DNA of 64,000 nucleotides from a virus, in IMG/VR virus record IMGVR_UViG_3300023184_000034, positions 97,030 through 161,029 of that record. One strand, 5' to 3'. A program made the translations under genes and the position numbers. Below, piece after piece: positions 7,089 through 52,174 of this stretch (the first letter of the stretch is position 1; each line of letters begins with the position of its first letter). The notes under the pieces were generated by a model. That model saw nothing but the letters and a program-made list of their open reading frames with translations. It was not told the origin of the DNA and did not search any database.

Positions 7089-7112
7089 TGTGTTCCCCGA
7101 ATTAATATGTAT

Positions 7113-8873: not shown

Positions 8874-8877
8874 GTTG

Positions 8878-10905
8878 TTAGCCTTTTACCGGTGTAAGTG
8901 ATCCGGATATACTCTGTAGAATTTGAGGGCCGATATTACCAGCACCTGTACTGGTATTTACAACCACTACCAAGATCATGTCATTGACATTGAAACTTTG
9001 ATTGGCCGAAAAAACTGTACCGTTTTTTGATGGTATACGTTCGTTGCTGGTCTTTATTCCAGGATGATTCCAAGTTCTGTAGTGTCTGCCTGTACTGAGT
9101 TTTGTGTTGTAGTACAACTGGGGGGCAATCAAAATAAAATCCTTACTGAGCATGCCTTGTTTGCGATAAGCATAGACCCAATCCATATTTACATTTACTG
9201 CGCCTTCGTCTCCATTTTTACTGAATTGACTAGCATCTACTTGTTTGTATCCTGGTATTGTAGGAGCCCCATCAGGCAGTTTTATAGATTTTTGTTGTTC
9301 AACAGCACAACCACCGTTACTAATAAATTTACTCTCTATCTTTTGTAACTTTATCAGCATTGGCCTTGTTAACTGCTGACGGAGTTGCGCTGGAATTATC
9401 CAATTGCCAACTCCATTTCTTACGTGAAACGGTGTGGGAATCCACATACCGTTGGGATCTAGATAGCCAAAGTCCGGTGCAGGTTTGACACCCGCCGGCC
9501 ATGTTTTAGGATCTTCAGGGTCAGAATTAGGACCAGCGGTTGATCCAGTTTGACCACCGGCGGCGCCAGCGGCGCCAGCGGCACCTACAGCACCCACGAT
9601 TGCTGGCAATTGACCAGACATGGCCTTGTCTTTAAGATCTTCTATACCGTCTATTGTTGCTTTTATATCTAATTTTAAATCGGCACTGGTGGTAGTTAGT
9701 CCGAAATAACGCACAAGTACGGGCAGTTGTTTTTTGATTGTATCAACATCTTCTTTTGATAAAACTCCAGACTGTATGGCTTGAGCAACGCCGCCGCCAT
9801 CTGCACCTGCACCTGCACCTGCCTCGGCGCCACCGTCGAATCCCGCCACGCCTCCGGTGGGTTTATCTTCTGGTTTTTCTTCTGTGTTATTCCACCAGTC
9901 CCATAATGCTTTACCACCTTCATATGCTCCCCATCCGGTCAATGCTGCACCGCCAATCTTGGGCAAGGCAGCACGAATTGGATTACGGGCTTTAAACGCA
10001 AGTGATCGTCTAGCCAGTGACTGGGCTGTTGTTCTGGCTGCTGTTCTAGCGCCTGCTGTGGCACCCGGACCCATTCTGAACATTCTACCAAGTCCCTTTA
10101 TTAACGGAGCAATAAATTCATTCAGTTGTTCTGGCTTGTTTTCAACTAAAATAGTAAAAATTCTAATTTGTTCAGCAGGTGAAAATTCATGTAGGTTCTC
10201 AGATATCATCCTACGTTTGAGATTATTTCTACTTTCTGTTGTTACATTATATTTTTTAAGAATATTTTTTAATTGAGTTAATGCCGTGGCTAATTCAGCT
10301 GGTGGACCAATATCTTTTTCTGGATCTCCTGTTTTTCCTCGAAGCTTGGCATCTGCAGCACCAATATCTTTTTCTGGATCTCCTGATTTACCCCAAGGTT
10401 TGACACCTGCAGCACCAATATCTTTTTCTGGATCTCCTGATTTACCCCAAGGTTTGACATCTGCAGCACCAATATCTTTTTCTGGATCTCCTGATTTACC
10501 CCAAGGTTTGTCGCCCATGTTTGATGGCTTGTTAGTACTGGTGGGAAGTTCTTCTGCCATAGGGTGTTGTGGTGGGATACCAAATCCCACTTCACCGTCT
10601 GTGGCACCTGCATCACTGGTTTTAGTTGCGGATAATTTTTGAAAATCTTTAGGACTTACAATTATTTTACCACCGCCTTCTAAACCAGCAATAATACTAC
10701 CAGCTGATGAGATGCTTATTTTTCTAAATCCTTGAGATAGAGCCTTTGTTTCAACATCTGGGGTAAGTTCAAACCATAGTTTACTTGGTTCAACTGGAGT
10801 TAAGCCGTTGCCACTTTTGACCATGGGCTTGCCGCCCTGCATGGTTATGTAGTAAGGAGCCTCTCCTTCAGCTATGAATTTAGAAACAATATCTTTTACA
10901 CGCAT
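8878..10905 (-). CDS. Putative internal head protein with 18-aa tandem repeat
   Basis: 675 aa; N-terminus MRVKDIVSKFIAE; KPWGKSGDPEKDIGAADV repeats; hydrophobic Gly-rich helix. Confidence 0.5.
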   Translation of the reverse strand: MRVKDIVSKFIAEGEAPYYITMQGGKPMVKSGNGLTPVEPSKLWFELTPDVETKALSQGFRKISISSAGSIIAGLEGGGKIIVSPKDFQKLSATKTSDAGATDGEVGFGIPPQHPMAEELPTSTNKPSNMGDKPWGKSGDPEKDIGAADVKPWGKSGDPEKDIGAAGVKPWGKSGDPEKDIGAADAKLRGKTGDPEKDIGPPAELATALTQLKNILKKYNVTTESRNNLKRRMISENLHEFSPAEQIRIFTILVENKPEQLNEFIAPLIKGLGRMFRMGPGATAGARTAARTTAQSLARRSLAFKARNPIRAALPKIGGAALTGWGAYEGGKALWDWWNNTEEKPEDKPTGGVAGFDGGAEAGAGAGADGGGVAQAIQSGVLSKEDVDTIKKQLPVLVRYFGLTTTSADLKLDIKATIDGIEDLKDKAMSGQLPAIVGAVGAAGAAGAAGGQTGSTAGPNSDPEDPKTWPAGVKPAPDFGYLDPNGMWIPTPFHVRNGVGNWIIPAQLRQQLTRPMLIKLQKIESKFISNGGCAVEQQKSIKLPDGAPTIPGYKQVDASQFSKNGDEGAVNVNMDWVYAYRKQGMLSKDFILIAPQLYYNTKLSTGRHYRTWNHPGIKTSNERIPSKNGTVFSANQSFNVNDMILVVVVNTSTGAGNIGPQILQSISGSLTPVKG
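10306..10510. repeat. 54-bp coding tandem repeat, about 4 copies
   Basis: ACCAATATCTTTTTCTGGATCTCCTG starts at 10306, 10360, 10414 and 10468. Confidence 0.95.
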
Positions 10906-10909
10906 AATA

Positions 10910-12523
10910 TTATCCTAATAAACGTTTTGTCAATGCACGAATTTGATCAACTTCACGATTCTCAACCAGTGCTGGCTGTTCAGTACGATTCAAACGACCA
11001 GTAAGTTCACGCATGCGAGCCAAATCATTTCCTTCGCTGATAGGATCTTTTTTGCCTGCTGGTGCTGGCATCATTGCACCTAATTTTTTAGCTTCTTCTG
11101 CATCTTTGGCACCCGATGGATTTGGCACAACAACTAAATTCTCATCAGTTACTTTTTCTTTCTTCTTTCTTTCTGCCATGTAAGCAGTAGTTTCTTTCAT
11201 GTTCCGCCAAATGGCTGCTGCTACCATCTTGTCATCTGTTTCCTTAACAGTTTGCTTTTTATGACCCTTGGCCGCACGACTCATAGTTTGTTTGGCAGCT
11301 TCTTTAACACCCACTGCCTTCATAGCTCCATACGTCATTGCGGCATTCTTTAAACCTGGCACCATTGCTGATCCCAGAGACTTTGTTTTTTCCCAAGCAC
11401 TCATTGGTGCTGGAGCACCCGCAGCGGTAGGAGTATCTTCTTTAACTTTCTTGCCGCCTTTTTCATCTTTGCCAATGCGCCCGGCGATAACATCACCGCG
11501 TGTTACTTTGTCATAAGGTTTGGCATTGTTGGCCAAGTTACCGTCGCCTTTCTTTTTGGCTTCGTACATGCCACATTCTTTTAAACCGTGTACTGGACAC
11601 TTTTTATCTTTTGGTGTGTGATTGCATTTGCCTTCACCCATTGCTGCACTTGCTCCAGCTTTCTTTAGATCAGCACCAGTGGCTCTCATGCCTGGCACTG
11701 TGGTTGTTGCGGTTGTGGGAATTCCAGATTTTTGTGGTGCACCACTTATTGCGGTTTCTTTAACACCACCGCGCAACTTCTTAAAATCATCTCCGTCTAA
11801 TTTGCCGTTATGATTCTTGTCCAGTTTCTTCTTACCACCTTTGAGTGCTTCGTCAACTTTCTTGCCGTCTTTCACACGAGTCACTGAATCTTTACCAAAA
11901 CGTTTTTCCCAGTTTTTGCCTTCTTTCTCTTCAGCTTTGTCAGCAGCTTTGTTGCCTTCCTTGTCTGCAGCTGATTGTGATTTGGCATTTGATTTGGGCT
12001 CAGTATGCTCTTCATCACTGAATCTGTTGGGATTCTCTTTGTGTTTAGTTACACCTTTGGTTGAACGGTCAATTTCGCCACCTGTGGATGATTTTTCTTC
12101 AGAAACTTTTTCAGCTTGAGCTTTCTTGAGTTCTTTCACTTTTGATTTTGCTTCTGATAATAATTCTTTGATTCTCATTTTTTGTCCTTCGCTCAGTGTA
12201 TCACTGTTGTCCAAGTGGTGACCGTATTCGCTGAATTTCATTTCATATTCTAAATAGTGATATACTGATGCAATATAGTCAGCAGCCTTGGTAATTTTGG
12301 CCTGTACCCATGATTCCAATTGGTCATTGTCTTCCAACTGTTGATACAGCTTGTGTGCGTAGTTGGCTATTTTGAACAAATCAGCTTTGGCCATGGCACC
12401 TTCGCGGTCAGTCTCGCCACCGTGTAAGCCTATGGTGCCGCCCACTGGTTCTGAATCCATTTCTGGCTGATCCATCTCAGGTTGGTCCATTTCTGAGTCA
12501 ATGTTATCTAATTCTGCTGGCAT
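10910..12523 (-). CDS. Putative internal head/scaffold-like protein
   Basis: 537 aa; conserved-looking 'LESWVQAKITKAADYIASVYHYLEYE' domain, K/E-rich, many VKE/LSE/ISE sites; TAAATA at 12547-12552. Confidence 0.5.
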   Translation of the reverse strand: MPAELDNIDSEMDQPEMDQPEMDSEPVGGTIGLHGGETDREGAMAKADLFKIANYAHKLYQQLEDNDQLESWVQAKITKAADYIASVYHYLEYEMKFSEYGHHLDNSDTLSEGQKMRIKELLSEAKSKVKELKKAQAEKVSEEKSSTGGEIDRSTKGVTKHKENPNRFSDEEHTEPKSNAKSQSAADKEGNKAADKAEEKEGKNWEKRFGKDSVTRVKDGKKVDEALKGGKKKLDKNHNGKLDGDDFKKLRGGVKETAISGAPQKSGIPTTATTTVPGMRATGADLKKAGASAAMGEGKCNHTPKDKKCPVHGLKECGMYEAKKKGDGNLANNAKPYDKVTRGDVIAGRIGKDEKGGKKVKEDTPTAAGAPAPMSAWEKTKSLGSAMVPGLKNAAMTYGAMKAVGVKEAAKQTMSRAAKGHKKQTVKETDDKMVAAAIWRNMKETTAYMAERKKKEKVTDENLVVVPNPSGAKDAEEAKKLGAMMPAPAGKKDPISEGNDLARMRELTGRLNRTEQPALVENREVDQIRALTKRLLG

Positions 12524-12549
12524 GAGTATACTCCGTTGTCTTTATGTAT

Positions 12550-13566
12550 TTAGCGTCGTTTGATAGGCGGCCCACCAAATAAGCTAGCGCCTTTGATGTC
12601 CAAGCCGTTCTTGGCTGTGCCGTCTTTGTTTTTGGGTTGATTAACTTTGGGTTGCGGTGGTGCCTTGCTGCCTGATTTGCCAGGACTACCAATATAACTC
12701 TTTTTACCACGTGCTTTGCCAGGGCTCAAATGCGGTGCATCTACCGTGCCAATGTTAGCAGCACTGGTTGCACCCACGGTGGCTGACTCACCCATTGGTT
12801 TGCCTTCCGCCACACCTTGCTCTTTACTTTTCTTCAGTATATCAGGATGTGCGAAACCTTTTTTGACTTGTTCTGCCGGACTCATCTTATCAACTAACTT
12901 ACCAAGTTTAGGATCAACATCATGCCAAGTCTTTGGATAGGGCTTTTTATCACCTCCCGCCACACCTTTGTTTCCTTTTGCCATTTTCAATGAGGTTTTT
13001 AGTGCTGCCGTTTTTCCTCTAGGAGTTTTAGCATCATTTGCGGTATCTGCTCTGCGTTGAAGTGGATCGTACCCAAACTTTGGGCTATTAGGATTGCGCG
13101 GTGTTTTGTTGCCTTCGTCATCTACATCATACGCATCTGGATCGCTACGCCATTTAGCAGCCTCCGCCACACCTTGCTCACCATGCTTTTTAGCACGACG
13201 AATTCTATTTGCTAAATGATGTAATCCAGACTCCATACTACGTGCTTTACGCTCTCCAGCAGATAAATTTTGCTCACGATCCGCATATTGCCAATCTGAT
13301 CCACCTAATGCTTCGTATTCTTTTTTCATTTTTGCATATTCAGCTTCGAGGTGCGGAAGATCTGCGTGGTCCTGTGCTTGGTCATCTTGAGATTTTTGAT
13401 GTGCTACTGCTCTATCTGTTTCACGTTTTTCAGAATCTTGTCTGCGTAACTCATCGTGCTCTGGATCACCGTGGATACGTAGATTTTTAAATTTAGGATT
13501 ATTTTTTTGTAAATCTTTAAGAAACGAAGACATATCGTTTTCTTGTACTAACTCATTTATTTTCAT
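12550..13566 (-). CDS. Putative internal head protein with QGVAE-delimited modules
   Basis: 338 aa; starts MKINELVQE; EQGVAE occurs twice. Confidence 0.5.
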   Translation of the reverse strand: MKINELVQENDMSSFLKDLQKNNPKFKNLRIHGDPEHDELRRQDSEKRETDRAVAHQKSQDDQAQDHADLPHLEAEYAKMKKEYEALGGSDWQYADREQNLSAGERKARSMESGLHHLANRIRRAKKHGEQGVAEAAKWRSDPDAYDVDDEGNKTPRNPNSPKFGYDPLQRRADTANDAKTPRGKTAALKTSLKMAKGNKGVAGGDKKPYPKTWHDVDPKLGKLVDKMSPAEQVKKGFAHPDILKKSKEQGVAEGKPMGESATVGATSAANIGTVDAPHLSPGKARGKKSYIGSPGKSGSKAPPQPKVNQPKNKDGTAKNGLDIKGASLFGGPPIKRR

Positions 13567-13793
13567 TTTTTAATTCCTCTAAATCCTGTGCCTACAGCAA
13601 CTTCACCACCCATGAACTTGGGCAAACTAAACCATAACTTAAACCATTCTTCGGTTCCGGGTTTGATATTCTGCTCACGCATTATAACTGCTTTTTCAGT
13701 ACCAGTTACACTGATGTTGCTTCCGTCATAAGGTTGCAGGCCTTTAAATTCCTTAATGCCTGCTAACTTTTTAAGACGTGCTAATTCATCCAT
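13563..13793 (-). CDS. Hypothetical phage protein
   Basis: 76 aa; MDELARLKKLAGIKE; IKPGTEEWFKLWF; translationally coupled to neighbours. Confidence 0.7.
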   Translation of the reverse strand: MDELARLKKLAGIKEFKGLQPYDGSNISVTGTEKAVIMREQNIKPGTEEWFKLWFSLPKFMGGEVAVGTGFRGIKK

Positions 13794-14230
13794 TATTTCA
13801 AACTGGACCTTAACATCCAGCTGTGCTTTTTATGTGCATCTTGGCGATCTGCTAAAAAGTTACTCAACCCATGATCTCCAGCTTGTTCAGCCATGTCAAA
13901 TGTGATGCGGAATATATTAGCCATACGCTCGCTATCTTCTAACAACTCACTCAGCATGCCACTCCAATCAGGCACAGCGTTTTCATCTTCAACTTTGGTA
14001 AGCATACTGAACTTGGCTAGGCTTGCTGGTGTGTAAATCTGTAATGCACGTAGGTGTTCCGCAAATGGATCCACAGCACCATATACTTCTTCATATATGG
14101 TTTGAAATAAGTTGTGCAGTTGAGCAAACAACGGACCCTCCACATTCCAATGGAAATTATGTGCTTTTAAATAAAAACTAAATTCGCTGGCAAACGCTGT
14201 TTTCAATGCCAAGTGATATTTCTCGTCCAT
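13793..14230 (-). CDS. dps: Dps/ferritin-like DNA starvation protein
   Basis: KAHNFHWNVEG..FAQLH..F..IYEE ferroxidase signature; HKKHSWML C-terminus. Confidence 0.92.
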   Translation of the reverse strand: MDEKYHLALKTAFASEFSFYLKAHNFHWNVEGPLFAQLHNLFQTIYEEVYGAVDPFAEHLRALQIYTPASLAKFSMLTKVEDENAVPDWSGMLSELLEDSERMANIFRITFDMAEQAGDHGLSNFLADRQDAHKKHSWMLRSSLK

Positions 14231-14232
14231 GA

Positions 14233-15303
14233 TTAAATTCCGTATTTGTTCTTTTTAATTTTTGCCACTGCACTGGTTTTATTAACATCAGCAGTTTCTA
14301 AACTTCGATTGTTACTCCATGTCTGTCGCTTACCGCCACCTACTTGTTTAGCGGCAGCATTGATCATATCGTTTTCTTCTTCAGTGTAGGGTGCTAGTAA
14401 TGGATCTCCACCGATCCAATTGTCTGCTTCAATTTTTGTGGGATAATCAGGAGCACCTGCCAATGCAATACCCATCCTGTACCCCATATATGCACTACCA
14501 GTACTTTGATTCATTGAAGGAAATGTTGTTGCATTTTTAATTGCGGCCTTATGATGTCCGTGCATCTTTTGTGTGCCACCGTGACCTTCTCTTAATGATC
14601 TTGCCAACGCATTGGCTTCCTTCAAAGATACATCTGGTTCGGCTTTTTCTTTTTTTGCTCGCACCTTGGGCTTGCTGAAATCTTGCATGCGTGTTTGTGC
14701 TTTTTGCATCAAATCTCTTACTTCGTCATCATCCAGTTCGGGGTTCATTGCATCACGCCAAACAGCAAACTTTTCGTCATCACTCTTGCTTGGATCCATT
14801 AACACATCTCGCATGGGCGTGGCACGTGGCCCTTCTTGTTCACGACTTGGATCGTTGGTTTCTTGACGAGCAATCACATTTAAACTGTTAAAACTAAACG
14901 GAATTCTGCCAGCTTTGTCTGGAACTCCGTTATACTGCTTGACATAACTTAAACCTTTGACTTGATCTTCTCCCACTACCACAGTTACATCAGTATAACC
15001 GTGATGGTCGAGTTTTGTTAACACACGAGTTAAATCAGGCATATCATCTGTGGCAGTGTGAAAAATATGTCCGTGAGCTGGAAATACTTTTTTATAAATC
15101 TGCATTTTTTCTTCTGGCTTGATTGGATCGTCTTTGCCCACTGTGCGGCTAACAACAAAGTAAGGATCAGCACCTTGTTCGTCTGCTTGTGTGATAACAC
15201 TGCTGGCCAGATACATGTGACCTTTGTGACCCATGCCACGCCCCCAGCCCACCACAGCAGCTTTGCCTTCCCCAGTGCGATTAAGAAATTCACGTAACAA
15301 CAT
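14233..15303 (-). CDS. HxGH (cytidylyltransferase-like) nucleotidyltransferase plus a separate C-terminal domain
   Basis: VVGWGRGMGHKGH, VVVGED, RATPMR (SAT.vR-like); C-terminal domain follows SLKE/SLRE sites. Confidence 0.7.
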   Translation of the reverse strand: MLLREFLNRTGEGKAAVVGWGRGMGHKGHMYLASSVITQADEQGADPYFVVSRTVGKDDPIKPEEKMQIYKKVFPAHGHIFHTATDDMPDLTRVLTKLDHHGYTDVTVVVGEDQVKGLSYVKQYNGVPDKAGRIPFSFNSLNVIARQETNDPSREQEGPRATPMRDVLMDPSKSDDEKFAVWRDAMNPELDDDEVRDLMQKAQTRMQDFSKPKVRAKKEKAEPDVSLKEANALARSLREGHGGTQKMHGHHKAAIKNATTFPSMNQSTGSAYMGYRMGIALAGAPDYPTKIEADNWIGGDPLLAPYTEEENDMINAAAKQVGGGKRQTWSNNRSLETADVNKTSAVAKIKKNKYGI

Positions 15304-17201
15304 TAGTCTTTCCTCGGAGCCCAGTTGGCCTGGTCAATGGTTTTTACAAACTGTCCAGGCAAATCATTTTTAAATTTACCACCCGGATGTGCTTGTACAT
15401 ATCCTTCTGGTTTTGTTTGACGAATACCGCCGTGTGTGCCTGAACTCAATGTGTTGATAACTTTCATCTTTTCGTGTGTTAGTAATTCAACAGCACTCAA
15501 CACAGCATCTAATCCAGGATGACTCAACACTTTTTGTGCTTGTGTATTGCTTAGTTTTGCAGTGGCCCATTCTCTAAATTTCTGTTTAACACCAGCCACA
15601 CGTAAATTTTGATTAAAGAAACTGTACAACACATCGCCAGGTTTGCTTAGTCCAGGCTGACCCGCAATAAAGCTATCTATAGCAGCCTTGTTTTGTTTGA
15701 TGTATGACTCGGCGTGTTTTAATCCAGTGTTGTCAACTTTGGGTGCATTTTCAACATATGTTGTGCCTTGTACAATAACATCACCGTTGGATAATTTTTC
15801 AGCATTGGGATAACGTGTTTCATCTGCACCAATGTGTGTGTAGTAACCAGTTGCAGCCACCATAACTTTTGATCTAGAAATTTTCTTACCCAGTGCGCTG
15901 CCTACTGGAATATGGAAACTTGTTATGTTGGGAGTGAAATCATATTCATTGGTACTGGGATTTAACACAGCTGGCTTTAAAGGACTAAACAGTATCCCAC
16001 CTTCGATATATCCTGATTTGGGACTGATGCTTTCAAAGTAAGGCCATAGGTCTGCAAGTCCTTGAGCAAATGCTTTGCGTTGATCTTCTTGTCCGGGTTG
16101 TGCTGTGCCTGTGCCCAACACAAACATGGCCACATCGTCCGGGTCGTTCATCATGGTGGTAACACCACTCTTGGTATGAGTGGTGCCGCGCTTCATGTAG
16201 TCCCATGCGTTCTTTGGAAACATGTGAAATTTGCCATGCTCGTCTCGACCCCAGTATACCACAGGACTTCCGTCCCATTTTAATTCTATACCTTTGCCTT
16301 TGGCAGTCATGTCACGCAGTCGTTCAACTGCATGTAAACCACCCACACTGCCATCAGTGAAAACCAAATCTTCAATGTGTTGATACTTGCGGCCCACAGC
16401 TGCTTCCAACAATGATGTGGCTGGACCACGTAACGGAGCAGCTGACCAACTGGACCCAGATGTTGCAGCATCATGTACTTGTTGTTTTAATGCAGGATCT
16501 TTAATTGCTGACATGATACTTTCTGCACTGCCAAGATCATTACCAGTGTGTCCAGGCCCTAATAATAGTGTGGCTATTTCATCCCAACTATCGGACAACA
16601 AGTCTGCTTTCTTTCTAGCAGCATCTCTTGCGTACAGTCCTTCGTCTGGGCTCCACAGCATGTTCTTAGCACTGGCCAACGCACTCATCACCACTTGCTT
16701 GTGTACACCCTTGTATGGACTACCCTTGGGTATCTGATGTTGATGGAACTTGGATACTTTCTCAGCTTTACGAACAACTTTGATATCACACTGATAAAAT
16801 TGTCCGTTGTATGGAAATTTAATGTGTACAGTTACCCCAGCTTTATAAGTTGCTGGAACACCATTGTCTAATAAAAATTGTTCCAGAGCGTTTCTAGCGG
16901 CCTTGTCATCGTCAGCCAACTTCTTGCTCTGAGGAATTTTAAAATATTGTTTAACTTGATCCATGTCGCAGCTAACATCCAAGTCACCTGTTGGATGTTC
17001 TGGTGTAGGGTCTGTGTTGGCACCACTGCCTTGTACATACAACGGAAAACCTGCTTTGCGAAGATACTTCTTAACTTGCGATAACAGTGCTTGTACTATA
17101 TCCGGAGTAGGATAAAACTCCACAGTTTCAGGCCAGATGTTGCCACCACCTTCTTTGAGAATAGGCTTTCTAACATTAGAAAATAATTCACGTAGTAACA
17201 T
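15303..17201 (-). CDS. Fusion of a Pol-beta-type nucleotidyltransferase and an ATP-dependent (RNA) ligase-like domain (DUF6267-like)
   Basis: N-terminal GSG..TGDLDV...QCD; C-terminal KWDG (16269-16280), IEGGIL, KPEGYV, FVK. Start reassigned to ATG 17201 (TAATG overlap with upstream stop). Confidence 0.65.
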   Translation of the reverse strand: MLLRELFSNVRKPILKEGGGNIWPETVEFYPTPDIVQALLSQVKKYLRKAGFPLYVQGSGANTDPTPEHPTGDLDVSCDMDQVKQYFKIPQSKKLADDDKAARNALEQFLLDNGVPATYKAGVTVHIKFPYNGQFYQCDIKVVRKAEKVSKFHQHQIPKGSPYKGVHKQVVMSALASAKNMLWSPDEGLYARDAARKKADLLSDSWDEIATLLLGPGHTGNDLGSAESIMSAIKDPALKQQVHDAATSGSSWSAAPLRGPATSLLEAAVGRKYQHIEDLVFTDGSVGGLHAVERLRDMTAKGKGIELKWDGSPVVYWGRDEHGKFHMFPKNAWDYMKRGTTHTKSGVTTMMNDPDDVAMFVLGTGTAQPGQEDQRKAFAQGLADLWPYFESISPKSGYIEGGILFSPLKPAVLNPSTNEYDFTPNITSFHIPVGSALGKKISRSKVMVAATGYYTHIGADETRYPNAEKLSNGDVIVQGTTYVENAPKVDNTGLKHAESYIKQNKAAIDSFIAGQPGLSKPGDVLYSFFNQNLRVAGVKQKFREWATAKLSNTQAQKVLSHPGLDAVLSAVELLTHEKMKVINTLSSGTHGGIRQTKPEGYVQAHPGGKFKNDLPGQFVKTIDQANWAPRKD

Positions 17202-17575
17202 TATATACCCTTGTACTTGCCAGCTTGTATGTGTTCTTGTATATCGTCGTGCATTTTGGAACAAGCTTCTTTGCACATCTTTTCTTCTAATTCATCGGGC
17301 AATTCACGTATGGGGAATTTTTCTTTGTACTGTTTATAGCATTCTTTTATGGCTTCGGCAAACATGGTGGCTTGTACCGGCTTCTTGGCATTGACCAAAT
17401 CTAAACATTTAACTAAAACTGGAAAAACGTGACGACGGTATATATGGTCGTCGTTGTGCATGAAATGCAACAAGTCTTCTATTAGATCGTAGTCTAACTC
17501 ACGTTTATCGCCATGTTGTTTAACATATGCTAATTCTTTAAAATTAGCGTTTTCTAATAACTCTTTTATAAGCAT
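17201..17575 (-). CDS. Hypothetical phage protein (putative head cargo)
   Basis: Starts MLIKELLE at ATG 17575; late box TAAATA at 17609-17614. Confidence 0.7.
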   Translation of the reverse strand: MLIKELLENANFKELAYVKQHGDKRELDYDLIEDLLHFMHNDDHIYRRHVFPVLVKCLDLVNAKKPVQATMFAEAIKECYKQYKEKFPIRELPDELEEKMCKEACSKMHDDIQEHIQAGKYKGI

Positions 17576-17634
17576 TTTTATTCCCAACAGAATACTCTGG
17601 ATTTAGAGTATTTATCGCTTTTACGATCATTAGG

Positions 17635-18258
17635 CTATGCTTTGATAATGCGAGAAACCTTGGATATACTACCGCCAAGGTGCATTTTTGACATGAGTAA
17701 GTTGTTATCACCTGTTACATAGAAGTGTGTACCGCCCCAACTGCGATTCCTTGTCAAGGCTGCTATACAACTCTTTGTTAGTTTGAGTTTTTTATTACAT
17801 GATGCCCATGATATAAATGCACTGTGTTCCTGTGTAGTTTTACCCAGCGTCACTCGGAAATCGTAGTTCATCTTGGGCATAATCACAGTATCAGAACTCA
17901 GTGACACATTGGCCGGCGGCGCACAAACATACTTGACCCTGTTGCTGTCCAACTTTGCTAAATCATCTATATGACTTTTATTATTTGTGTACACAGTAAT
18001 CCATGGGTTTTCTATCCTGATATTTAAATCAACCGATATAGACAACACTTTATACAGAGACAACGCATAGTCCTTGTCTTCAAAACTTTTAAAACTTAGA
18101 GATCCAGGCCGAGAACTTGGAGAAATGCTACTTTTTTGCAACATGTTCAAACAGTGTTGCCAATCACCGTTGCGAAAGAAGTGTGCATTGGAACACACCA
18201 ACACTATCTTGTATTGGTATATCCCCATGAACAACTTGCTAGTGGTTTTAACTAACAT
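17635..18258 (-). CDS. Hypothetical protein
   Basis: 207-aa ORF overlapping the clpA stop. Confidence 0.7.
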   Translation of the reverse strand: MLVKTTSKLFMGIYQYKIVLVCSNAHFFRNGDWQHCLNMLQKSSISPSSRPGSLSFKSFEDKDYALSLYKVLSISVDLNIRIENPWITVYTNNKSHIDDLAKLDSNRVKYVCAPPANVSLSSDTVIMPKMNYDFRVTLGKTTQEHSAFISWASCNKKLKLTKSCIAALTRNRSWGGTHFYVTGDNNLLMSKMHLGGSISKVSRIIKA

Positions 18259-20527
18259 TCATCTCAACCAACGAAGTAGTGGAATCCACTGTTAGCAACG
18301 GCGTTTTTGATTCCTTGGGAGTTGACAACAACACCAACTTGTCGTCTTGAACTGTGATGTTTAGTACTCCGCCGTTCTTTAAATTACCAAACAACATGAG
18401 CTTTGCCATCGGACGTTTGATTTCCTTGTCAATCACACGTTGTAACGGACGTGCGCCCATCTTGGGATCAAAACCTTTGGTAATAAGCCAGTTAGTACTT
18501 TCCTTATCTAACTTGATACGAATGCCTTTTTCTTTAACTTGAGCACGTAACTCATCCATAAATTTAACAATAACCTTGGTCATAGACTCTTTGCCCAACT
18601 TGTTAAAAGTCATAATACCATCCAATCGATTACGGAACTCTGGTGTAAAGAATTTCTTCAAATCTGCATCACTGTAATCTTTTTCCTGTGCGCCAAAACC
18701 AATGGCATTCTTTTCCGCAGATTGTGCGCCAGCATTGGTAGTGAGGATAAGAATCAAATTACGGCAATCTGCTTGTTTGCCATTTGACCCTGTGACAAAA
18801 CCGTTATCCATCATTTGCAACAACACAGTTGTGACATCTGGATGCGATTTTTCAACTTCATCAAACAACAACACTGCATTTGGATTCTCTTGAATCTGTG
18901 TGATTAGCAATCCAGCGTTCTCCTCAAACCCCACATAGCCAGGAGGACTACCGATCAGTTTGGAAATGCTGTGCTTTTCTTGGTATTCTGACATGTCAAA
19001 TCTCAACAACTTGACACTCAAGTGCTTGGCCAGTGATTTGGCAGTTTCGGTCTTGCCGCAACCCGTGGGCCCCATGAACACAAATGATCCAATGGGTTTA
19101 TTTTCTGATTTTAATCCAGCCTGCGCCACCATGATCTTATCCACAACTTCTGTAAGAGCAAGATCTTGCCCGTAAACTTCACGTTGCAAGTTTTCTTGTA
19201 GCATGGAAAGATTGCTGGATTCTGTTTCCATGATCTTTTCTTCAGGCATTTGAATCATCTTGGCCAGTTCAAACTGAATTTCACGCTCGCCAATGATTCG
19301 ATCATCTGCAAGTTTGAGATTAAAACGACTACATGCCAAATCGATCAAGTCAATTGCTTTGTCTGGCAACTTCTTGTCTGTTTGATATTTGACTGACAAT
19401 TTAATAGCAGCATCCAGTGCATCATCACGTATTTTAACCTTGTGGAAACCTTCGTAGTATTTCTTAATACCTTTGAGGATTTGTTTGGTAACTTCCACGG
19501 TGGGCTCGTCAACTGTGATGCGTTGAAACCTGCGCATCAGCGCACGATCCTTTTCAAAGTGCTTGCGATATTCTTCCCATGTGGTTGATGCAATGACTTT
19601 GATGTTGCCTTTGCTCAGTGCAGGTTTCATCATGTTGGCAAGGTCGTTTGAACTGTTGCCACCTGCGCCAGCACCACTAATCATGTGAGCTTCGTCGATA
19701 AACAACACAGTTTTGCCTTTCTTCTGCAATGCCTTAATAACATGCTTGAATCTTTCTTCAAAGTCTCCACGATACTTGCTGCCAGCCAGCATAGCACTGA
19801 TATCTAAACTGTAAACTTTGTATTCTTTGAGAAATTCTGGAACAGCACCATTCACAATATTGTGTGCAAGGCCTTCAGCAATAGCAGTCTTGCCCACGCC
19901 AGGATCACCAACTAAAATCACATTATTTTTATTGCGACGACCCAATGCCAGTGCAATATTTTCTAATTCGTCAATACGACCAATAACTGGATCAATCTTT
20001 TGTTTTTCAACCATGTCGTTTAGATTGGTTGTAAACGCACGAAGTGCTCTGTCGCTTTGATTGTCTGTGCCAGATTCTTCTTCAGATTCTTCAGAATTGC
20101 TGTTATTAACAAAGTCATTGAACTTGTCTTTATCGATTTTGGCCTTTTGGATGTAATAATGTGCCCAGCTGCGTTTTTCACCAATCATGCTCATGAACAC
20201 ATCAGTGGGTTCAATACGTTGCCTACCGTTAAACAACACTTGTGTAAATGCACGATTAAGCACACGCTCTACACTTTGAGTTTTCTTTGGTTTAACAACC
20301 ACATCAGTGATGGTGATTTCTTGACACTTGTTGTGCAAATAATCTGTTAGATCATTTTTAAGTTCGTCAAGATTTGCGCCAAATCCTGTGATCACGTTTC
20401 CAAATGGTTCCTCCAACAACATGGCATACAATAAATGTTCTATTGTAAGATACTCGTGATGAAGTTTTTTAGCTGTATCAATTGCTTTTTCAAATACCGC
20501 TTGTAGGTTATCACTTGGTTCAACCAT
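18248..20527 (-). CDS. clpA: ATP-dependent Clp protease ATPase subunit ClpA
   Basis: Clp-N domain (HEYLTIEHLL), two AAA+ modules (GDPGVGKT, GPTGCGKT), IGF ClpP-docking loop, GARPL; no ClpB coiled-coil middle domain. Confidence 0.93.
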   Translation of the reverse strand: MVEPSDNLQAVFEKAIDTAKKLHHEYLTIEHLLYAMLLEEPFGNVITGFGANLDELKNDLTDYLHNKCQEITITDVVVKPKKTQSVERVLNRAFTQVLFNGRQRIEPTDVFMSMIGEKRSWAHYYIQKAKIDKDKFNDFVNNSNSEESEEESGTDNQSDRALRAFTTNLNDMVEKQKIDPVIGRIDELENIALALGRRNKNNVILVGDPGVGKTAIAEGLAHNIVNGAVPEFLKEYKVYSLDISAMLAGSKYRGDFEERFKHVIKALQKKGKTVLFIDEAHMISGAGAGGNSSNDLANMMKPALSKGNIKVIASTTWEEYRKHFEKDRALMRRFQRITVDEPTVEVTKQILKGIKKYYEGFHKVKIRDDALDAAIKLSVKYQTDKKLPDKAIDLIDLACSRFNLKLADDRIIGEREIQFELAKMIQMPEEKIMETESSNLSMLQENLQREVYGQDLALTEVVDKIMVAQAGLKSENKPIGSFVFMGPTGCGKTETAKSLAKHLSVKLLRFDMSEYQEKHSISKLIGSPPGYVGFEENAGLLITQIQENPNAVLLFDEVEKSHPDVTTVLLQMMDNGFVTGSNGKQADCRNLILILTTNAGAQSAEKNAIGFGAQEKDYSDADLKKFFTPEFRNRLDGIMTFNKLGKESMTKVIVKFMDELRAQVKEKGIRIKLDKESTNWLITKGFDPKMGARPLQRVIDKEIKRPMAKLMLFGNLKNGGVLNITVQDDKLVLLSTPKESKTPLLTVDSTTSLVEMNVS

Positions 20528-21020
20528 TACGTTTTCCTTTTCTCTTTAATAATTTCTTTTTAGCTAATGACAATTTTAATGGACTAATATTGTCTATAAA
20601 ACAAACACCATCCAAGTGGTCTAGTTCATGTTGAAAACATCTTGAATCTATTCCAGTTAGTTCTATTATACATTCTTTGTTTTGTCTGTCAATGTATCTG
20701 ACTGTAATATTGTTATGTCTGGGTACTTTTAAAATTAGTCCAGGAAAGCTCAAGCATCCTTCTTCTCCAGTGACCATATTGTTATCTCCCCACAATATCG
20801 ATGGATTGAACATACAAAACGGTACTTGATTTGTCAAGTGTATGGCAAAAACTCGTTTAAGTAAACCAACTTGATTGGCCGCTAATCCCCTGCCGTGACT
20901 CACAACCATAAGTTGAACCATGTCAACTTCTAAATTGGCCGGGTTCTGATCTTTTTCAAAATCCCAACGTTCTGCAGTTTGTTTTAGAATAAGATCAGAC
21001 GACTCTATTAATTTCAGCAT
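20520..21020 (-). CDS. def: Peptide deformylase
   Basis: GLAANQVG, EGCLS, QHELDHLDG. Confidence 0.96.
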   Translation of the reverse strand: MLKLIESSDLILKQTAERWDFEKDQNPANLEVDMVQLMVVSHGRGLAANQVGLLKRVFAIHLTNQVPFCMFNPSILWGDNNMVTGEEGCLSFPGLILKVPRHNNITVRYIDRQNKECIIELTGIDSRCFQHELDHLDGVCFIDNISPLKLSLAKKKLLKRKGKRNG

Positions 21021-21855
21021 CCAGCGCCCTTAGTTTTGCTATTAAATTTTGGTCAGTAATTATTGGTGTTTTAATTTTGACCACACTGACAAATCTTCCC
21101 TTTCCTCCATTATTTACATTTGTGAAGCCAGTTCCGTGGCTAGCAAACTCAACTCCAGTTTCTACGCCTGCACGTATATCGATCTCCATGCGGTCACCTG
21201 ATATATTACTAACAGTTTTTTTACAACCCAGCATGGCTTCAATGGGAGATATTTCTATGTTGGTATACAAATCATCGCCTCGACGTTCAAACTTGGGATC
21301 TGCTTGCACTAAAATTGTCACGTTAAGGTTACCACGTTGCATTTGAGGAATGGAATCGTCTCCTAGCCCGTTGTATCTAATGGTGTCGCCGTTGGTGATT
21401 CCAGGCGGCACATTGATCTTAACTGACTGATTACGGCCACTGGGTAATTGGAAATTAGCTTCAAGTTGTTTGCCAAGATATGAATCTACCAAGCTAACTT
21501 GACACTGGATGTTTAAATCTCGATTTTTCCTTACTCCTCGCATTTGCCCAAATATATCTCCAAACGGATGGCCAGCCCCGCCAAACATTTGTCCAAAAGG
21601 ATCCTGACCACCTCCAAACGGATTTCCAGTATGAAAGTGGAATTGTGGTTGATCACCGTACATACGTTTTTGGTCGTATTCGGTTTTTTTGTTAGCATCG
21701 CTCAATGTGTCGTATGCCACACTGATATCTTTGAATTTGGCTTGGTCGCCGCCCTTGTCCGGATGGTGCTTGTTGGCCAGGCTTCGATATGCTTTTTTAA
21801 TTTGTTCTGGGTCAGCGTCTGCGCCAACACCTAGTGTTTGGTAATAGTCAGTCAT
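20995..21855 (-). CDS. Class B DnaJ/CbpA-like co-chaperone
   Basis: J domain with HPD, G/F linker, C-terminal substrate-binding domains, no Zn finger. Confidence 0.92.
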   Translation of the reverse strand: MTDYYQTLGVGADADPEQIKKAYRSLANKHHPDKGGDQAKFKDISVAYDTLSDANKKTEYDQKRMYGDQPQFHFHTGNPFGGGQDPFGQMFGGAGHPFGDIFGQMRGVRKNRDLNIQCQVSLVDSYLGKQLEANFQLPSGRNQSVKINVPPGITNGDTIRYNGLGDDSIPQMQRGNLNVTILVQADPKFERRGDDLYTNIEISPIEAMLGCKKTVSNISGDRMEIDIRAGVETGVEFASHGTGFTNVNNGGKGRFVSVVKIKTPIITDQNLIAKLRALDAEINRVV

Positions 21856-33491: not shown

Positions 33492-34808
33492 TTATTGTAT
33501 TCTATACCATGTGGTATTGCTTGTTCTGTATATGTATTGGTATGTTGCATATGGTGCTATTACACCAGCAGCAAGTGCGCCTAACAATGTGGGTCCTGCA
33601 GTTAATGCAAGCGTAACTGTGTTATCATGTATCACAAATCTCACCACCTGCCCGTCTGTGGGTGCGGGCGGAAATGTCAACGTTGCTGTGTAACCAGATG
33701 CAGTCACTAACAAAATATTATTGACAACTGTGGTGCTCAGTGCATACACAGCAGTTGAACTCACAGTGATATAATTTGCCCCCTGTAACCCAATTGATTG
33801 CACAGTGCCAGATACTGTTAAATTGCCAATCACAGACAAATTGTTTTTGACAGTGGTGGTGCCTGTGACAGCGCCAATTGACAGTGTGGTGGCCGAACCA
33901 CCAAACGCAATGGTGGTTGCTGTGGTATTAACTAAATTAAACACTGTTTGTGCAGTTGATATTTGGCTGGCTGTGGCGTTGCCAATATTAGGAGTGACCA
34001 GGGTTGGGCCAGTGGCAAACACCAAAGAACCCGAGCCTGTTTCGTCACTGATAACACTGCGTAATTGTATGCTGCTGGTCAATGCAAATTGATCTAATCT
34101 GCCAGTGGATGTGGCCAACACACCCGAAGTGGGCAATGTTAGATTGGTAATTCCTGTGGACGTCAGTGTGATATTGCCAGCGCCGGTTGCTGTTAAATTT
34201 GTACCCAGGGACAGTATGTTCCCGCTTACTTTTATACCAGGTTCAGCCACGGCACCAAAATCATAATCGTTTGCCAAGGGTGTGGTAAATCCGCTGCCAG
34301 TGCCAGTGCCATTGAGGTCCACAGTAAATCCCTTGGCAAATCGTTGCCACCCAGTTGGTCGGGTTATTGTGCCAAAGTCTGCATTGATGTTTGGAGTTGT
34401 GGACATGGCCACTGAAAACAAGCTGTTGCTGACATTTGGATCAATTCCATAAATTGTGGTTTGTGTGTCCCCGCCGTAGATGTAACGACTGTTTAGGTTT
34501 AAATTTCCAGCCAAGGTTGGAGTTGTGTCACGGGACAATGTGGTTGTGCCTTGTAAATTCACAGTGTTGGCTGTGTTGGTGATAACAACTGAGCTGTCAG
34601 TACTGGTTAATGTTTTAAATTCTAGAAGGGTAGCAGCCTTGGTTTTAAAAACGCCCGTGCCACCGCCCACGTTAGCACCAGTTGAAATGCCAACTTCTAT
34701 GTTTAATGCAGCAAAATTTGCATTTACTTTGATAAATGCTGTGCGTAAATCGTCGCCAGTACCGTCATTTGCGTAGCTACCTAAGAATATTTCTTGTATT
34801 GTTGACAT
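33492..34808 (-). CDS. Tail fibre/baseplate protein with gp9/gp10-like N-terminus
   Basis: NDGTGDDLRTAFIKVNANF; Thr/Gly-rich; TAAATA at 34827-34832. Confidence 0.7.
   Translation of the reverse strand: MSTIQEIFLGSYANDGTGDDLRTAFIKVNANFAALNIEVGISTGANVGGGTGVFKTKAATLLEFKTLTSTDSSVVITNTANTVNLQGTTTLSRDTTPTLAGNLNLNSRYIYGGDTQTTIYGIDPNVSNSLFSVAMSTTPNINADFGTITRPTGWQRFAKGFTVDLNGTGTGSGFTTPLANDYDFGAVAEPGIKVSGNILSLGTNLTATGAGNITLTSTGITNLTLPTSGVLATSTGRLDQFALTSSIQLRSVISDETGSGSLVFATGPTLVTPNIGNATASQISTAQTVFNLVNTTATTIAFGGSATTLSIGAVTGTTTVKNNLSVIGNLTVSGTVQSIGLQGANYITVSSTAVYALSTTVVNNILLVTASGYTATLTFPPAPTDGQVVRFVIHDNTVTLALTAGPTLLGALAAGVIAPYATYQYIYRTSNTTWYRIQ

Positions 34809-38041: not shown

Positions 38042-38042
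<1 letters not shown>
35601..38042 (-). CDS. Tail fibre with YadA-head-like repeats
   Basis: NDKTGDTLRNAFVKANANF; about 9 A(V/I)A(I/V)G..AG...QG repeats; W.F..DG.L.LP repeats. Confidence 0.75.

Positions 38043-52174
<14,132 letters not shown>

What the first reader, a model, noticed from the sequence alone, without database searches (positions are those of the whole stretch)
14233..17201. Three nucleotidyltransferase folds in one coupled gene pair: candidate virion-delivered RNA-repair or anti-defence system
Seen: the 632-aa gene has an N-terminal Pol-beta NTase signature (GS..GDLD, later QCD) and a C-terminal domain with covalent-NTase/ligase motifs I (KWDG), III-like (IEGGIL), IV (EGYV) and V (FVK). 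The two domains are separated by SLLE/AA, a predicted head-protease site. It is TAATG-coupled to an HxGH NTase, and both begin MLLRE. Known: Pol-beta NTases include CCA-adding enzymes and CD-NTases, KxDG enzymes include Rnl1/Rnl2, and HxGH enzymes include NMNAT. Inference: a pre-packaged kit that heals and seals tRNA cut by defence nucleases, regenerates NAD+, or makes a nucleotide signal before phage genes are expressed.
Basis: partly seen in the sequence, partly recalled or inferred. Interest (0 to 1): 0.8.

Follow-up and report, generated by a model that had tools for sequence, protein, structure and literature searches.

The report
Head-tagged PolX, ligase-like, HxGH enzyme trio
Two overlapping late genes of an uncultured giant T4-related phage encode a miniature repair-type DNA polymerase joined to an uncharacterised ligase-like enzyme, plus an NMNAT-like nucleotidyltransferase. 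The three always travel together, and they carry T4-style head-loading leaders, so the phage probably injects a ready-made fill-and-seal repair kit with its DNA.

Summary
Gene A (15303-17201, minus strand, 632 aa) and gene B (14233-15303, 356 aa) overlap in TAATG, and both start MLLRE.

- **Gene A, N half:** a confident model matches family X DNA polymerases, closest to the minimal ASFV Pol X. It does not resemble CCA-adding enzymes or CD-NTases beyond the palm.
- **Gene A, C half (Pfam DUF6267):** it has a ligase-type nucleotidyltransferase fold with invariant KxDG, EG and K, and no OB domain.
- **Gene B:** an HxGH/CTP_transf_like enzyme, nearest to NMNAT/PPAT.

The three domains form one module. 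B follows A in 67 of 67 related loci, and relatives encode N|C|B, NC|B, CB, NCB, BNC and CN arrangements.

DUF6267 plus the HxGH gene is near-universal in T4-like cyanophages, which lack gp30 ligase. That favours DNA nick sealing.

Virion delivery is plausible but unproven. The support is a T4 CTS-like leader, [LIVF]xE|A sites in disordered linkers, a gp21-type protease in the genome, and a late-promoter-like motif heading the operon.

The choice between RNA and DNA substrate, and the role of B, remain open.

The scan met the same module before on other genomes (e1-5389743, e1-5389747), with the same reading.

The parts
17609..17616 (-). Late-promoter-like motif GATAAATA, 41 nt upstream of the first gene of the operon
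   Evidence: NATAAATA occurs 23 times in the 161-kb record. Fourteen copies lie 25-46 nt upstream of a same-strand start codon, where about 0.2 are expected. Genes preceded include a baseplate hub and a tape-measure-like protein. The T4 late promoter consensus TATAAATA is established knowledge.
17201..17575 (-). 124-aa gene of unknown function with the leader MLIKELLEN. It is the first gene of the operon, and its stop overlaps the gene A start.
   Evidence: A syntenic 124-aa gene (MLLNEFF...) precedes the module in L004.
15303..17201 (-). Gene A, 632 aa: leader, Pol X-like domain, linker and DUF6267 ligase-like domain
17151..17201 (-). N-terminal leader MLLRELFSNVRKPILKE|GG (residues 1-17), T4-CTS-like and predicted disordered
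   Evidence: Mean pLDDT is 49 and 56 for the first two 10-residue blocks. Untagged stand-alone homologs start at ...LNEGGN. The T4 CTS is MKTYQEFIAE (PMC8442874).
16434..17150 (-). Pol X-like nucleotidyltransferase domain (residues 18-256): G58-S59, D73, D75, D139
   Evidence: AF2 pLDDT 89.6. Foldseek finds Pol lambda and Pol beta at E 1e-6. VIA gives Pol beta Z 11.7 with 176 residues aligned, and ASFV Pol X Z 10.8 with 162 of 176 residues.
16398..16415 (-). Inter-domain linker with SLLE|AA (residues 263-268), a candidate prohead-protease site
   Evidence: pLDDT is below 50 at residues 262-266 and 268-270. [LIVFMA]xE[AGSNTV] lies within 16 aa upstream of the GRxxQHxED core in 144 of 183 sequences, against 8% of background windows. 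In relatives the gene is split at this point.
15306..16403 (-). DUF6267 ligase-like covalent nucleotidyltransferase domain (residues 267-632): H275, E277, K308-x-D310-G311, K578, E599-G600, K620. It has no OB domain.
   Evidence: Pfam PF19782. AF2 pLDDT 93.7. The top 17 VIA hits are all RNA or DNA ligases, Z 7.0-5.0.
15301..15305 (-). TAATG stop/start overlap coupling gene A to gene B
14233..15303 (-). Gene B, 356 aa. It has an HxGH (cytidylyltransferase-like) domain at residues 1-215 (14659-15303), with H26/H29 and GPRATPMR at 158-165. A variable C-terminal region (14236-14658) ends in the conserved tail ...KKNKYGI.
   Evidence: PHROG 3041 and 395 'cytidyltransferase', best E 3e-22. Homologs pass PF01467. 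The nearest NCBIfam models are NMNAT and PPAT, far below their cut-offs. ESM Atlas neighbours carry PF01467.
13793..14230 (-). Context: a Dps/ferritin-like DNA-binding protein gene, 2 nt downstream of gene B in the same operon
   Evidence: Pfam Ferritin E 6.6e-22; PHROG 3636 'DNA binding protein'.

Best explanation
The pair encodes a three-enzyme polynucleotide break-mending module.
- A minimal family-X-type polymerase (palm plus fingers, like ASFV Pol X) fills short gaps or adds a nucleotide at a 3'-OH.
- The fused DUF6267 domain is a divergent ligase. It would be adenylylated on Lys308 of KWDG and seal the resulting nick.
- The HxGH enzyme (gene B) is the ligase domain's constant partner. 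It most likely makes or recycles an adenylylated small-molecule cofactor, with NMNAT as its nearest relatives.

The preferred substrate is probably DNA. In this jumbo-phage lineage the genes sit in a late operon. The proteins carry T4 capsid-targeting-like leaders and [LIVF]xE|A sites at the leader ends and at the domain junction. They are therefore probably loaded into the prohead, cut into separate enzymes by the gp21-type protease, and injected with the genome to mend nicks and gaps on entry.

Shown here: the folds, the motifs, the linkage and fusions, the protease gene and the promoter motif. Inferred: catalysis, substrate, processing, packaging and the role of B.
For: **Folds.**
- The N domain model (pLDDT 89.6) matches Pol lambda and Pol beta by Foldseek at E 1e-6 and probability 1.0.
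- By VIA its top eight hits are all family X polymerases over 162-192 residues. Other NTases align over only about 100 palm residues.
- The C domain model (pLDDT 93.7) has only ligases as its top 17 VIA hits: NgrRnl Z 7.0, REL1 6.1, Rnl2 5.8, Trl1 5.7, Chlorella virus ligase 5.4 and T4 DNA ligase 5.3.
- KxDG, EG and K are invariant in the C domain.
- Gene B has an invariant HxGH and a RATPMR motif. Its homologs pass PF01467.

**One module.**
- B follows A in 67 of 67 IMG/VR loci that have room for it, and is fused to it in 4 of them.
- Fusions and splits occur in many orders: N-C 128, C-B at least 8, N-C-B at least 12, C-N 3, and HxGH-N-C.

**Lean towards DNA.**
- DUF6267 is found in 469 phage records. 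These include 369 Synechococcus-phage and 61 'Cyanophage' records, against 377 and 61 that have the T4-type PolB.
- Cyanomyoviruses lack g30 ligase (PMC2984593 and PMC1079782). P-HM1 has no PF01068 hit. There DUF6267 lies beside gp41 and MazG.
- A Dps-like gene sits in the same operon.
- P0261 adds a DxDxT HAD phosphatase to the module.

**Packaging.**
- Stand-alone C-domain proteins mostly start M-[KR]-x-x-[ED]-[FLI]-[LI]-x-E-[AS]. Others, including the cyanophage proteins, start directly at the core.
- The T4 CTS is MKTYQEFIAE and is cut once after it. gp21 cuts after Glu.
- The junction motif is enriched, 144 of 183 against 8%.
- The leader and the linker are predicted disordered.
- A Peptidase_S77/gp21-type protease gene lies next to the portal and major capsid genes.
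- A leader regex matches 7 of 125 ORFs, and 6 of them are in this block.
- A late-promoter-like motif heads the operon.
Against: - No enzyme activity or virion proteomics exists for any member.
- The ligase-fold Z scores are middling (7 or less). There is no OB domain, and the best hits are RNA ligases within a tie. The motif III acidic residue is not fixed.
- Sequence profiles do not place the N domain in any Pol X Pfam family. Only 2 of 32 members reach E 0.083.
- Gene B itself hits no Pfam model, and its NMNAT likeness is far below the cut-offs.
- A near-complete relative (G001, 94% complete) already has a canonical ATP-dependent DNA ligase and no Rnl1 or Rnl2. DUF6267 could therefore be its RNA ligase.
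- The leader of gene B is only 5 residues long before the Glu, and the leader pattern was defined after seeing it.
- Junction conservation could reflect common descent.
- Cyanophage homologs lack leaders, so the enzymes need no packaging to work.
Confidence: 0.45

Rival explanations
1. RNA (tRNA) repair kit. The Pol-beta-type domain restores nucleotides lost from a cleaved RNA 3' end, as RlaP does. The DUF6267 domain is an RNA ligase that reseals the break. Together they counter anticodon nucleases.
For: - The top ligase-fold hits are RNA ligases (NgrRnl, REL1, Rnl2, Trl1), there is no OB domain, and motif IV reads EGYV.
- Pol-beta NTases (RlaP) are known partners of RNA ligases in jumbo phages, together with HAD phosphatases (PMC7824862). 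RlaP adds 1-2 NMPs to RNA 3' ends (PMC12776372).
- P0261 carries a HAD phosphatase.
- The near-complete relative G001 has a canonical DNA ligase but no Rnl1 or Rnl2.
Against: - The N domain matches Pol X over palm plus fingers. It hits neither PF10127 (RlaP) nor any CCA-adding enzyme. RlaP has an all-helical second domain.
- Z differences between RNA and DNA ligases are at most 1.6 and mostly ties.
- DUF6267 is core to cyanomyoviruses that lack a DNA ligase, and it lies by replication genes.
- No polynucleotide kinase is seen next to the module. No tRNA genes are in the window.
Confidence: 0.25
2. The same fill-and-seal enzymes, but cytoplasmic. They are late-expressed to mend nicks and gaps in replicated concatemers before packaging. 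The MLLRE-type leaders are not targeting signals.
For: - Cyanophage homologs have no leader and lie among replication genes.
- The module is about 90 kb from the head genes.
- No virion data exist.
- Stand-alone N-domain proteins often lack the long leader.
Against: - The leader is an optional add-on that ends in [LI]xE[AS], like the T4 CTS, and it recurs on unrelated neighbouring proteins.
- The same site is kept at the internal junctions of fused forms, including IQE|N between C and B.
- The leader and linker are disordered.
- A gp21-type protease is present.
Confidence: 0.2
3. Anti-defence nucleotide metabolism. The HxGH enzyme is an NMNAT that rebuilds NAD+ after NADase defences, or the Pol-beta domain makes a nucleotide signal. 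The ligase-like domain would play an accessory role.
For: - The nearest NCBIfam models for B-type domains are NMN/NaMN adenylyltransferases.
- Jumbo phages are known to carry NAD+ salvage genes with HIGH-type NTases (PMC7824862).
Against: - No Nampt/NAPRTase is found in the 161-kb record or in the 94%-complete relative.
- CD-NTases match only the palm, at Z 8 or less, against 11.7 for Pol X.
- The tight fusion of B with a ligase-fold domain is not explained.
Confidence: 0.07

Closest known systems
African swine fever virus base-excision-repair set (Pol X, 174 aa, plus AsfvLIG)
   Same: A minimal family X polymerase with only palm and fingers subdomains. ASFV Pol X aligns over 162 of its 176 residues, Z 10.8, rmsd 3.2. 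It works with a virus-encoded ligase, and AsfvLIG is among the fold hits. The logic is fill, then seal.
   Different: Here the polymerase and the ligase-like domain are one polypeptide or adjacent genes. The ligase domain lacks an OB domain and a DNA-binding domain and belongs to the uncharacterised DUF6267. A third, HxGH enzyme is always attached. The proteins carry head-targeting-like leaders.
T4 internal proteins IPI-III and Alt (CTS cargo processed by gp21 and injected)
   Same: A short N-terminal leader of similar pattern: MKTYQEFIAE in T4, against MKIRELLSE|A and MLLRELF... here. The predicted cut is after Glu. A gp21-type protease is in the genome. The promoter motif is late-type.
   Different: The cargo here would be multi-domain nucleic-acid enzymes with internal sites. 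Nothing is shown experimentally. The leader of gene B is very short.
RlaP plus Rnl1/Rnl2 RNA-repair pairs of jumbo phages and bacteria
   Same: A Pol-beta-superfamily NTase is genomically coupled to a ligase of the covalent NTase superfamily. HAD phosphatases are sometimes attached.
   Different: There is no PF10127 match in any of 32 members. The second subdomain is Pol X fingers-like rather than the helical domain of RlaP. The ligase belongs to DUF6267, not to Rnl1 or Rnl2.
Bacterial LigD (NHEJ ligase, polymerase and phosphoesterase in one protein)
   Same: A repair polymerase fused to a ligase, with an end-cleaning phosphoesterase in some members. P0261 has a HAD phosphatase.
   Different: The LigD polymerase is an archaeo-eukaryotic primase fold, not Pol X. 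The LigD ligase has an OB domain. No Ku partner was looked for or seen here.
Cyanomyovirus 'T4-GC 71 hypothetical protein plus cytitidyltransferase' gene pair (e.g. P-HM1 PHM1_161/162; S-PM2 fused 591-aa protein)
   Same: True homologs of the C domain and of gene B: local HMMs give E 4.6e-35 and 1.5e-18, and Pfam DUF6267 gives E 6e-137. They are adjacent or overlapping, or fused.
   Different: There is no Pol X domain and no leader. The pair lies among replication genes. It was never assigned a function.

Membership tests
Family X DNA polymerase (Pol-beta NTase superfamily) | hG[GS] ... DxD ... third Asp catalytic signature | tested here: met
   D139 is invariant, and G58, S59, D73 and D75 are at least 90% conserved in 32 sequences.
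Family X DNA polymerase (Pol-beta NTase superfamily) | Palm plus fingers (nascent base-pair binding) subdomains | tested here: met
   The VIA top 8 are all Pol X enzymes with 162-192 aligned residues, Z 10.6-11.7. Other NTases align over about 100 residues only. Foldseek E 1e-6.
Family X DNA polymerase (Pol-beta NTase superfamily) | 8-kDa lyase domain and HhH thumb of canonical Pol beta and Pol lambda | tested here: not met
   The domain is about 240 aa, and alignment starts at Pol beta residue 133. ASFV Pol X lacks them too.
Family X DNA polymerase (Pol-beta NTase superfamily) | Match to the Pfam Pol X models (PF14792 and others) | tested here: inconclusive
   Only 2 of 32 members match, at E 0.083. 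A profile search against PDB gives Tailor TUTase at E 0.04.
ATP/NAD+-dependent polynucleotide ligase (covalent nucleotidyltransferase superfamily) | Motif I KxDG with the catalytic Lys | tested here: met
   K308, D310 and G311 are invariant in 43 sequences.
ATP/NAD+-dependent polynucleotide ligase (covalent nucleotidyltransferase superfamily) | Motifs IV (EG) and V (Lys) | tested here: met
   E599, G600 and K620 are invariant.
ATP/NAD+-dependent polynucleotide ligase (covalent nucleotidyltransferase superfamily) | Motif III acidic residue | tested here: inconclusive
   IEGGIL here against GDLL in most relatives. The acidic position shifts.
ATP/NAD+-dependent polynucleotide ligase (covalent nucleotidyltransferase superfamily) | Nucleotidyltransferase-domain fold | tested here: met
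   The top 17 VIA hits are all ligases, Z 7.0-5.0, with 159-198 residues aligned. Foldseek top hits are ligases but weak, E at least 0.026.
ATP/NAD+-dependent polynucleotide ligase (covalent nucleotidyltransferase superfamily) | OB domain after motif V (DNA ligases and capping enzymes) | tested here: not met
   The protein ends 12 residues after K620. Rnl1, Rnl2, Rnl3 and Rnl5 also lack a C-terminal OB domain (established knowledge).
ATP/NAD+-dependent polynucleotide ligase (covalent nucleotidyltransferase superfamily) | Formation of a Lys-AMP adduct and strand joining | not testable with these tools
   Needs biochemistry.
HxGH (cytidylyltransferase-like, PF01467) nucleotidyltransferase | HxGH motif after strand 1, and the C-terminal ISxTxxR-type motif | tested here: met
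   H26 and H29 are invariant. G158-P-R-A-T-P-M-R165 is invariant. Its equivalence to ISSTxxR is my reading.
HxGH (cytidylyltransferase-like, PF01467) nucleotidyltransferase | Pfam PF01467 match above the gathering score | tested here: inconclusive
   Gene B itself has no hit. Its homologs PHM1_162 (22.6 bits against 21) and P0303 (32.6 bits) pass. PHROG 'cytidyltransferase' E 3e-22.
NMN adenylyltransferase (NMNAT) | Score above the NCBIfam equivalog cut-offs | tested here: not met
   The best score is 31.8 bits against a cut-off of 127, over about 70 residues only. PPAT scores nearly the same.
T4-type capsid-targeted, gp21-processed head cargo | N-terminal CTS-like leader ending in [LI]xE | tested here: met
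   by sequence pattern only.
T4-type capsid-targeted, gp21-processed head cargo | gp21-type prohead protease in the same genome | tested here: met
   PF03420 at 89.5 bits and PHROG 207 at E 1.6e-56, lying between the portal gene and the major capsid gene.
T4-type capsid-targeted, gp21-processed head cargo | Presence of the processed protein in virions | not testable with these tools
   No cultured close relative with proteomics was found.
RlaP (PF10127) | Match to PF10127 | tested here: not met
   No hit at E up to 1 for gene A or for any of the 32 N-domain homologs.

The most novel reading that the evidence does not exclude
DUF6267 together with its obligate HxGH partner is a previously unrecognised two-component ligase system. 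The HxGH enzyme would supply or recycle the ligase's nucleotide donor, for example NMN plus ATP giving NAD+. Alternatively it would reverse abortive 5'-adenylylated ends. This system would be the long-missing replicative ligase of marine T4-like cyanophages. In giant phages it would be fused to a mini Pol X, loaded into the capsid on a T4-type address tag, cut apart by the head protease, and injected to mend the genome on arrival.
Probability: 0.2. Interest if true: 0.85.

Novelty: new variant of a known kind. Interest (0 to 1): 0.68.

Why it matters
- **A function for DUF6267.** The family has no assigned function, and no paper in the searched library mentions it. It occurs in about 470 sequenced phages and hundreds of metagenomic clusters. 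Here it gets a testable assignment as a ligase-type adenylyltransferase.
- **An old gap in cyanophage biology.** T4-like cyanophages have no recognisable g30 ligase (PMC2984593). DUF6267 could explain that.
- **Injected repair enzymes.** If packaging holds, these would be the first phage-injected polymerase and ligase. That would be a bacterial-virus counterpart of the ASFV repair set, and an example of enzyme polyproteins matured by a head protease.
- **An unexplained partnership.** The fixed pairing of a ligase fold with an HxGH nucleotidyltransferase has no described precedent that I know of. It may point to new ligase chemistry.

Tried and rejected
- **Complex prediction**, C domain against gene B: no verdict, score 0.00. 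This is evidence neither for nor against binding.
- **megablast against phages**: no close cultured relative.
- **Sequence searches of the PDB**, with single proteins and with profiles: only weak or chance hits, namely P68 lower collar E 0.006, Tailor E 0.04 and ribosomal protein L5.
- **Neighbouring genes in other phages:** the gene next to the B homolog in Vibrio phage 2.275.O, and P-HM1 PHM1_163 ('possible cytitidyltransferase'), are not related to the C domain or to gene B.
- **The search for related loci with alignment A2** failed for lack of a conserved stretch. It was rerun with the single protein.
- **Other ligases and Nampt in the 161-kb record:** no PF01068, PF09414, PF01653 or PF04095. 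The record is only 44% complete, so this is uninformative. The PF09511 search rang nowhere, including the controls.
- **Exact TATAAATA** is rare in the window, 1 copy. The relaxed NATAAATA is the informative motif.
- **CD-NTase, CCA-adding and TUTase readings of the N domain** were set aside because these enzymes match the palm only.
- **Capping-enzyme reading of the C domain** was not pursued. No capping enzyme is among the listed hits, which is inconclusive.
- **Literature searches** for DUF6267 and for 'cytitidyltransferase cyanophage' found nothing.

Full report
**Source and setting.** The window is bases 97030-161029 of a 161-kb IMG/VR viral contig that CheckV rates 44% complete. The phage is therefore a jumbo phage of roughly 350 kb. 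Its family B DNA polymerase is closest to those of Atu_ph07, Phosso, the Rak2-like coliphages and Vibrio phage 2.275.O, at 42-48% identity. The contig holds a T4-type head module: portal, a Peptidase_S77/gp21-type protease, a scaffold-like gene and the major capsid protein.

- Gene A (632 aa) starts at the ATG at 17201, which overlaps the stop of a 124-aa gene. Gene B (356 aa) starts inside the TAATG at 15305-15301.
- Both begin MLLRE.
- All quoted motifs are present.
- Nearly all of them are invariant or almost invariant in diverse homologs. The exception is the 'motif III-like' IEGGIL.

**What the domains are.**
- A search of 1.8 billion representatives found 489 relatives. The two halves of gene A turn out to be separable modules with a boundary at residues 256-268. 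N-only proteins run about 230-260 aa, C-only proteins about 350-390 aa, and many combinations exist.
- I folded each half with its own alignment. The N domain reached pLDDT 89.6 and the C domain 93.7.
- The N domain hits human Pol lambda and Pol beta by Foldseek at E about 1e-6.
- In an all-against-representatives VIA search, its top eight hits are all family X polymerases: Pol beta Z 11.7, ASFV Pol X Z 10.8 over 162 of 176 residues, TdT, Leishmania Pol beta, Thermus PolX and Pol lambda. TUTases, Trf4, CD-NTases and poly(A) polymerases align over only about 100 palm residues. The N domain is thus a minimal Pol X-like enzyme, palm plus fingers, without the lyase domain or the HhH thumb.
- The C domain is Pfam DUF6267. 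Its Foldseek hits are weak but almost all ligases. The 17 best VIA hits are all RNA or DNA ligases, Z 7.0-5.0.
- Taken with the invariant KxDG, EG and Lys, this is good evidence for a ligase-type covalent nucleotidyltransferase. It carries an inserted helical bundle and has no OB domain.
- Gene B has no Pfam hit of its own. It matches PHROG 'cytidyltransferase' families at E 3e-22, and it has an invariant HxGH and a GPRATPMR motif.
- Gene B is homologous to proteins that pass PF01467. The nearest curated models are NMNAT and PPAT, far below their cut-offs.

**One module.**
- In 67 of 67 related IMG/VR loci with room downstream, a B homolog directly follows A, and in four of them it is fused.
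- Across the fetched proteins every arrangement occurs: three separate overlapping genes in a syntenic contig (L004), N-C, C-B, N-C-B, C-N and HxGH-N-C. One protein has the order HxGH, DxDxT HAD phosphatase, N, C.
- T4-like cyanophages carry C plus B without N. The two are adjacent in P-HM1 next to gp41 and MazG, and fused in S-PM2.

**DNA or RNA?** This is not settled.
- *For DNA:* the N domain is Pol X-like over both subdomains. A Dps-like DNA-binding protein gene sits 2 nt downstream in the same operon.
- DUF6267 is present in 469 phage records. That is essentially every T4-like cyanophage: 369 and 61 records, against 377 and 61 with the T4-type polymerase.
- The cyanophage group has long been noted to lack g30 ligase (PMC2984593 and PMC1079782). 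P-HM1 has no PF01068 hit.
- *For RNA:* there is no OB domain, and RNA ligases score marginally best. A known Pol-beta NTase (RlaP) partners RNA ligase in jumbo phages (PMC7824862 and PMC12776372).
- A 94%-complete relative has a canonical DNA ligase but no Rnl1 or Rnl2.
- The N domain is not an RlaP family member by sequence.

**Packaging.**
- Most stand-alone C-domain proteins begin M-[KR]-x-x-[ED]-[FLI]-[LI]-x-E-[AS], followed by ...GRxxQHxEDL. Others, including all the cyanophage proteins, begin directly at the core. The leader is therefore an optional add-on.
- It resembles the T4 capsid targeting sequence MKTYQEFIAE, which is cut once by gp21 after Glu (PMC8442874 and PMC5694885).
- The window's internal SLLE|AAVGRKYQ is homologous to the end of that leader.
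- A [LIVFMA]xE[AGSNTV] site lies just upstream of the core in 144 of 183 dereplicated sequences, against 8% of control windows.
- The site falls in a segment with pLDDT below 50.
- Fused N-C-B proteins keep IQE|N where gene B here has MLLRE|F.
- A leader regex matches 7 of 125 ORFs in the contig, and six of them lie in the block 4131-17575.
- The motif NATAAATA occurs 23 times, 14 of them 25-46 nt before a start codon. Genes preceded include the baseplate hub, a tape-measure-like gene, the 124-aa gene that heads this operon, and the 985-aa gene.
- Together these make late expression and T4-style head loading and processing the most economical reading, but nothing here shows it directly.

**Role of gene B.** This is open. 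No Nampt accompanies it. Its constant bond is with the ligase domain, since C-B pairs exist without N. I therefore favour a cofactor-supplying or cofactor-recycling role, or an intermediate-editing role, for the ligase. This is inference only.

**Earlier notes of this scan.** Follow-ups e1-5389743 and e1-5389747 describe the same module on other genomes with the same reading. I reached the fold, fusion and leader results independently here.

**Verdict.** The fold assignments are well supported. Fill-and-seal repair with probable capsid delivery is the best explanation at moderate confidence. tRNA repair and a purely cytoplasmic role remain live rivals.

Noticed in passing
window 4131-17575 (minus strand): Most proteins of this late block share an N-terminal pattern M-x-[LIV]-[RK]-[DE]-[LIF]: MNLRDLMNK in the 985-aa protein, MRVKDIVSKFIAE|G in the 675-aa protein, MKINELVQE in the 338-aa protein, and MLIKELLEN in the 124-aa protein. 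The 985-aa protein also has a peptidoglycan-binding domain.
   Followed up: partly
window 4131-7088 and 10910-12523 C-termini; 13563-13793 N-terminus; proteins P0268-P0270, P0308, P0309, P0244: A second recurring terminal motif, E-L-x-x-[ML]-L-x-I-A-R-L-R/G, ends unrelated proteins. These include N-domain-plus-extension homologs (…ELTAMLTIARLR) and the window's 985-aa protein (…ELARWLRIARG). Its function is unknown.
   Followed up: no
window 14236-14283 (gene B C-terminus): The extreme C-terminal tail of gene B, N-K-x-S-x-V-A-K-x-K-K-N-K-Y-G-I, is almost invariant, although the 100 residues before it vary and come in two alternative versions. It is possibly a docking peptide.
   Followed up: no
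window 13793-14230: A Dps/ferritin-like gene (Pfam Ferritin E 6.6e-22) sits inside the same tightly coupled late operon. It has no leader.
   Followed up: partly
window 18248-21855: A chaperone and protein-quality cluster lies upstream: a ClpA/B-like double AAA+ ATPase (759 aa), then genes of 166 aa and 286 aa. Their syntenic counterparts in L004 carry peptide deformylase and DnaJ domains.
   Followed up: partly
window 38042-52174; also G000:C1:43290-58709: Two giant ORFs of 4710 aa and 5139 aa. The 4710-aa ORF and its neighbours (33492-34808, 35601-38042) share an N-terminal motif, ...G-x-x-A/G-N-D-G-T-G-D-x-L-R-x-A/S-F-x-K-x-N-x-N-F, and look like fibre proteins.
   Followed up: no
G000:C1:16474-17646 (major capsid protein): The major capsid protein starts MSELLNGRWAETKEALLE|GLQG, so it has an LLE|G site like those in genes A and B. 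This is consistent with a T4-like propeptide cut.
   Followed up: no
protein P0261 (1144 aa, metagenomic): This protein fuses four domains in the order HxGH NTase, HAD phosphatase (FDLDDTL...YDDS), Pol X-like, DUF6267. It has a weak hit to the DNA 3'-phosphatase model TIGR01664 (E 0.049). It hints at end-healing chemistry.
   Followed up: partly
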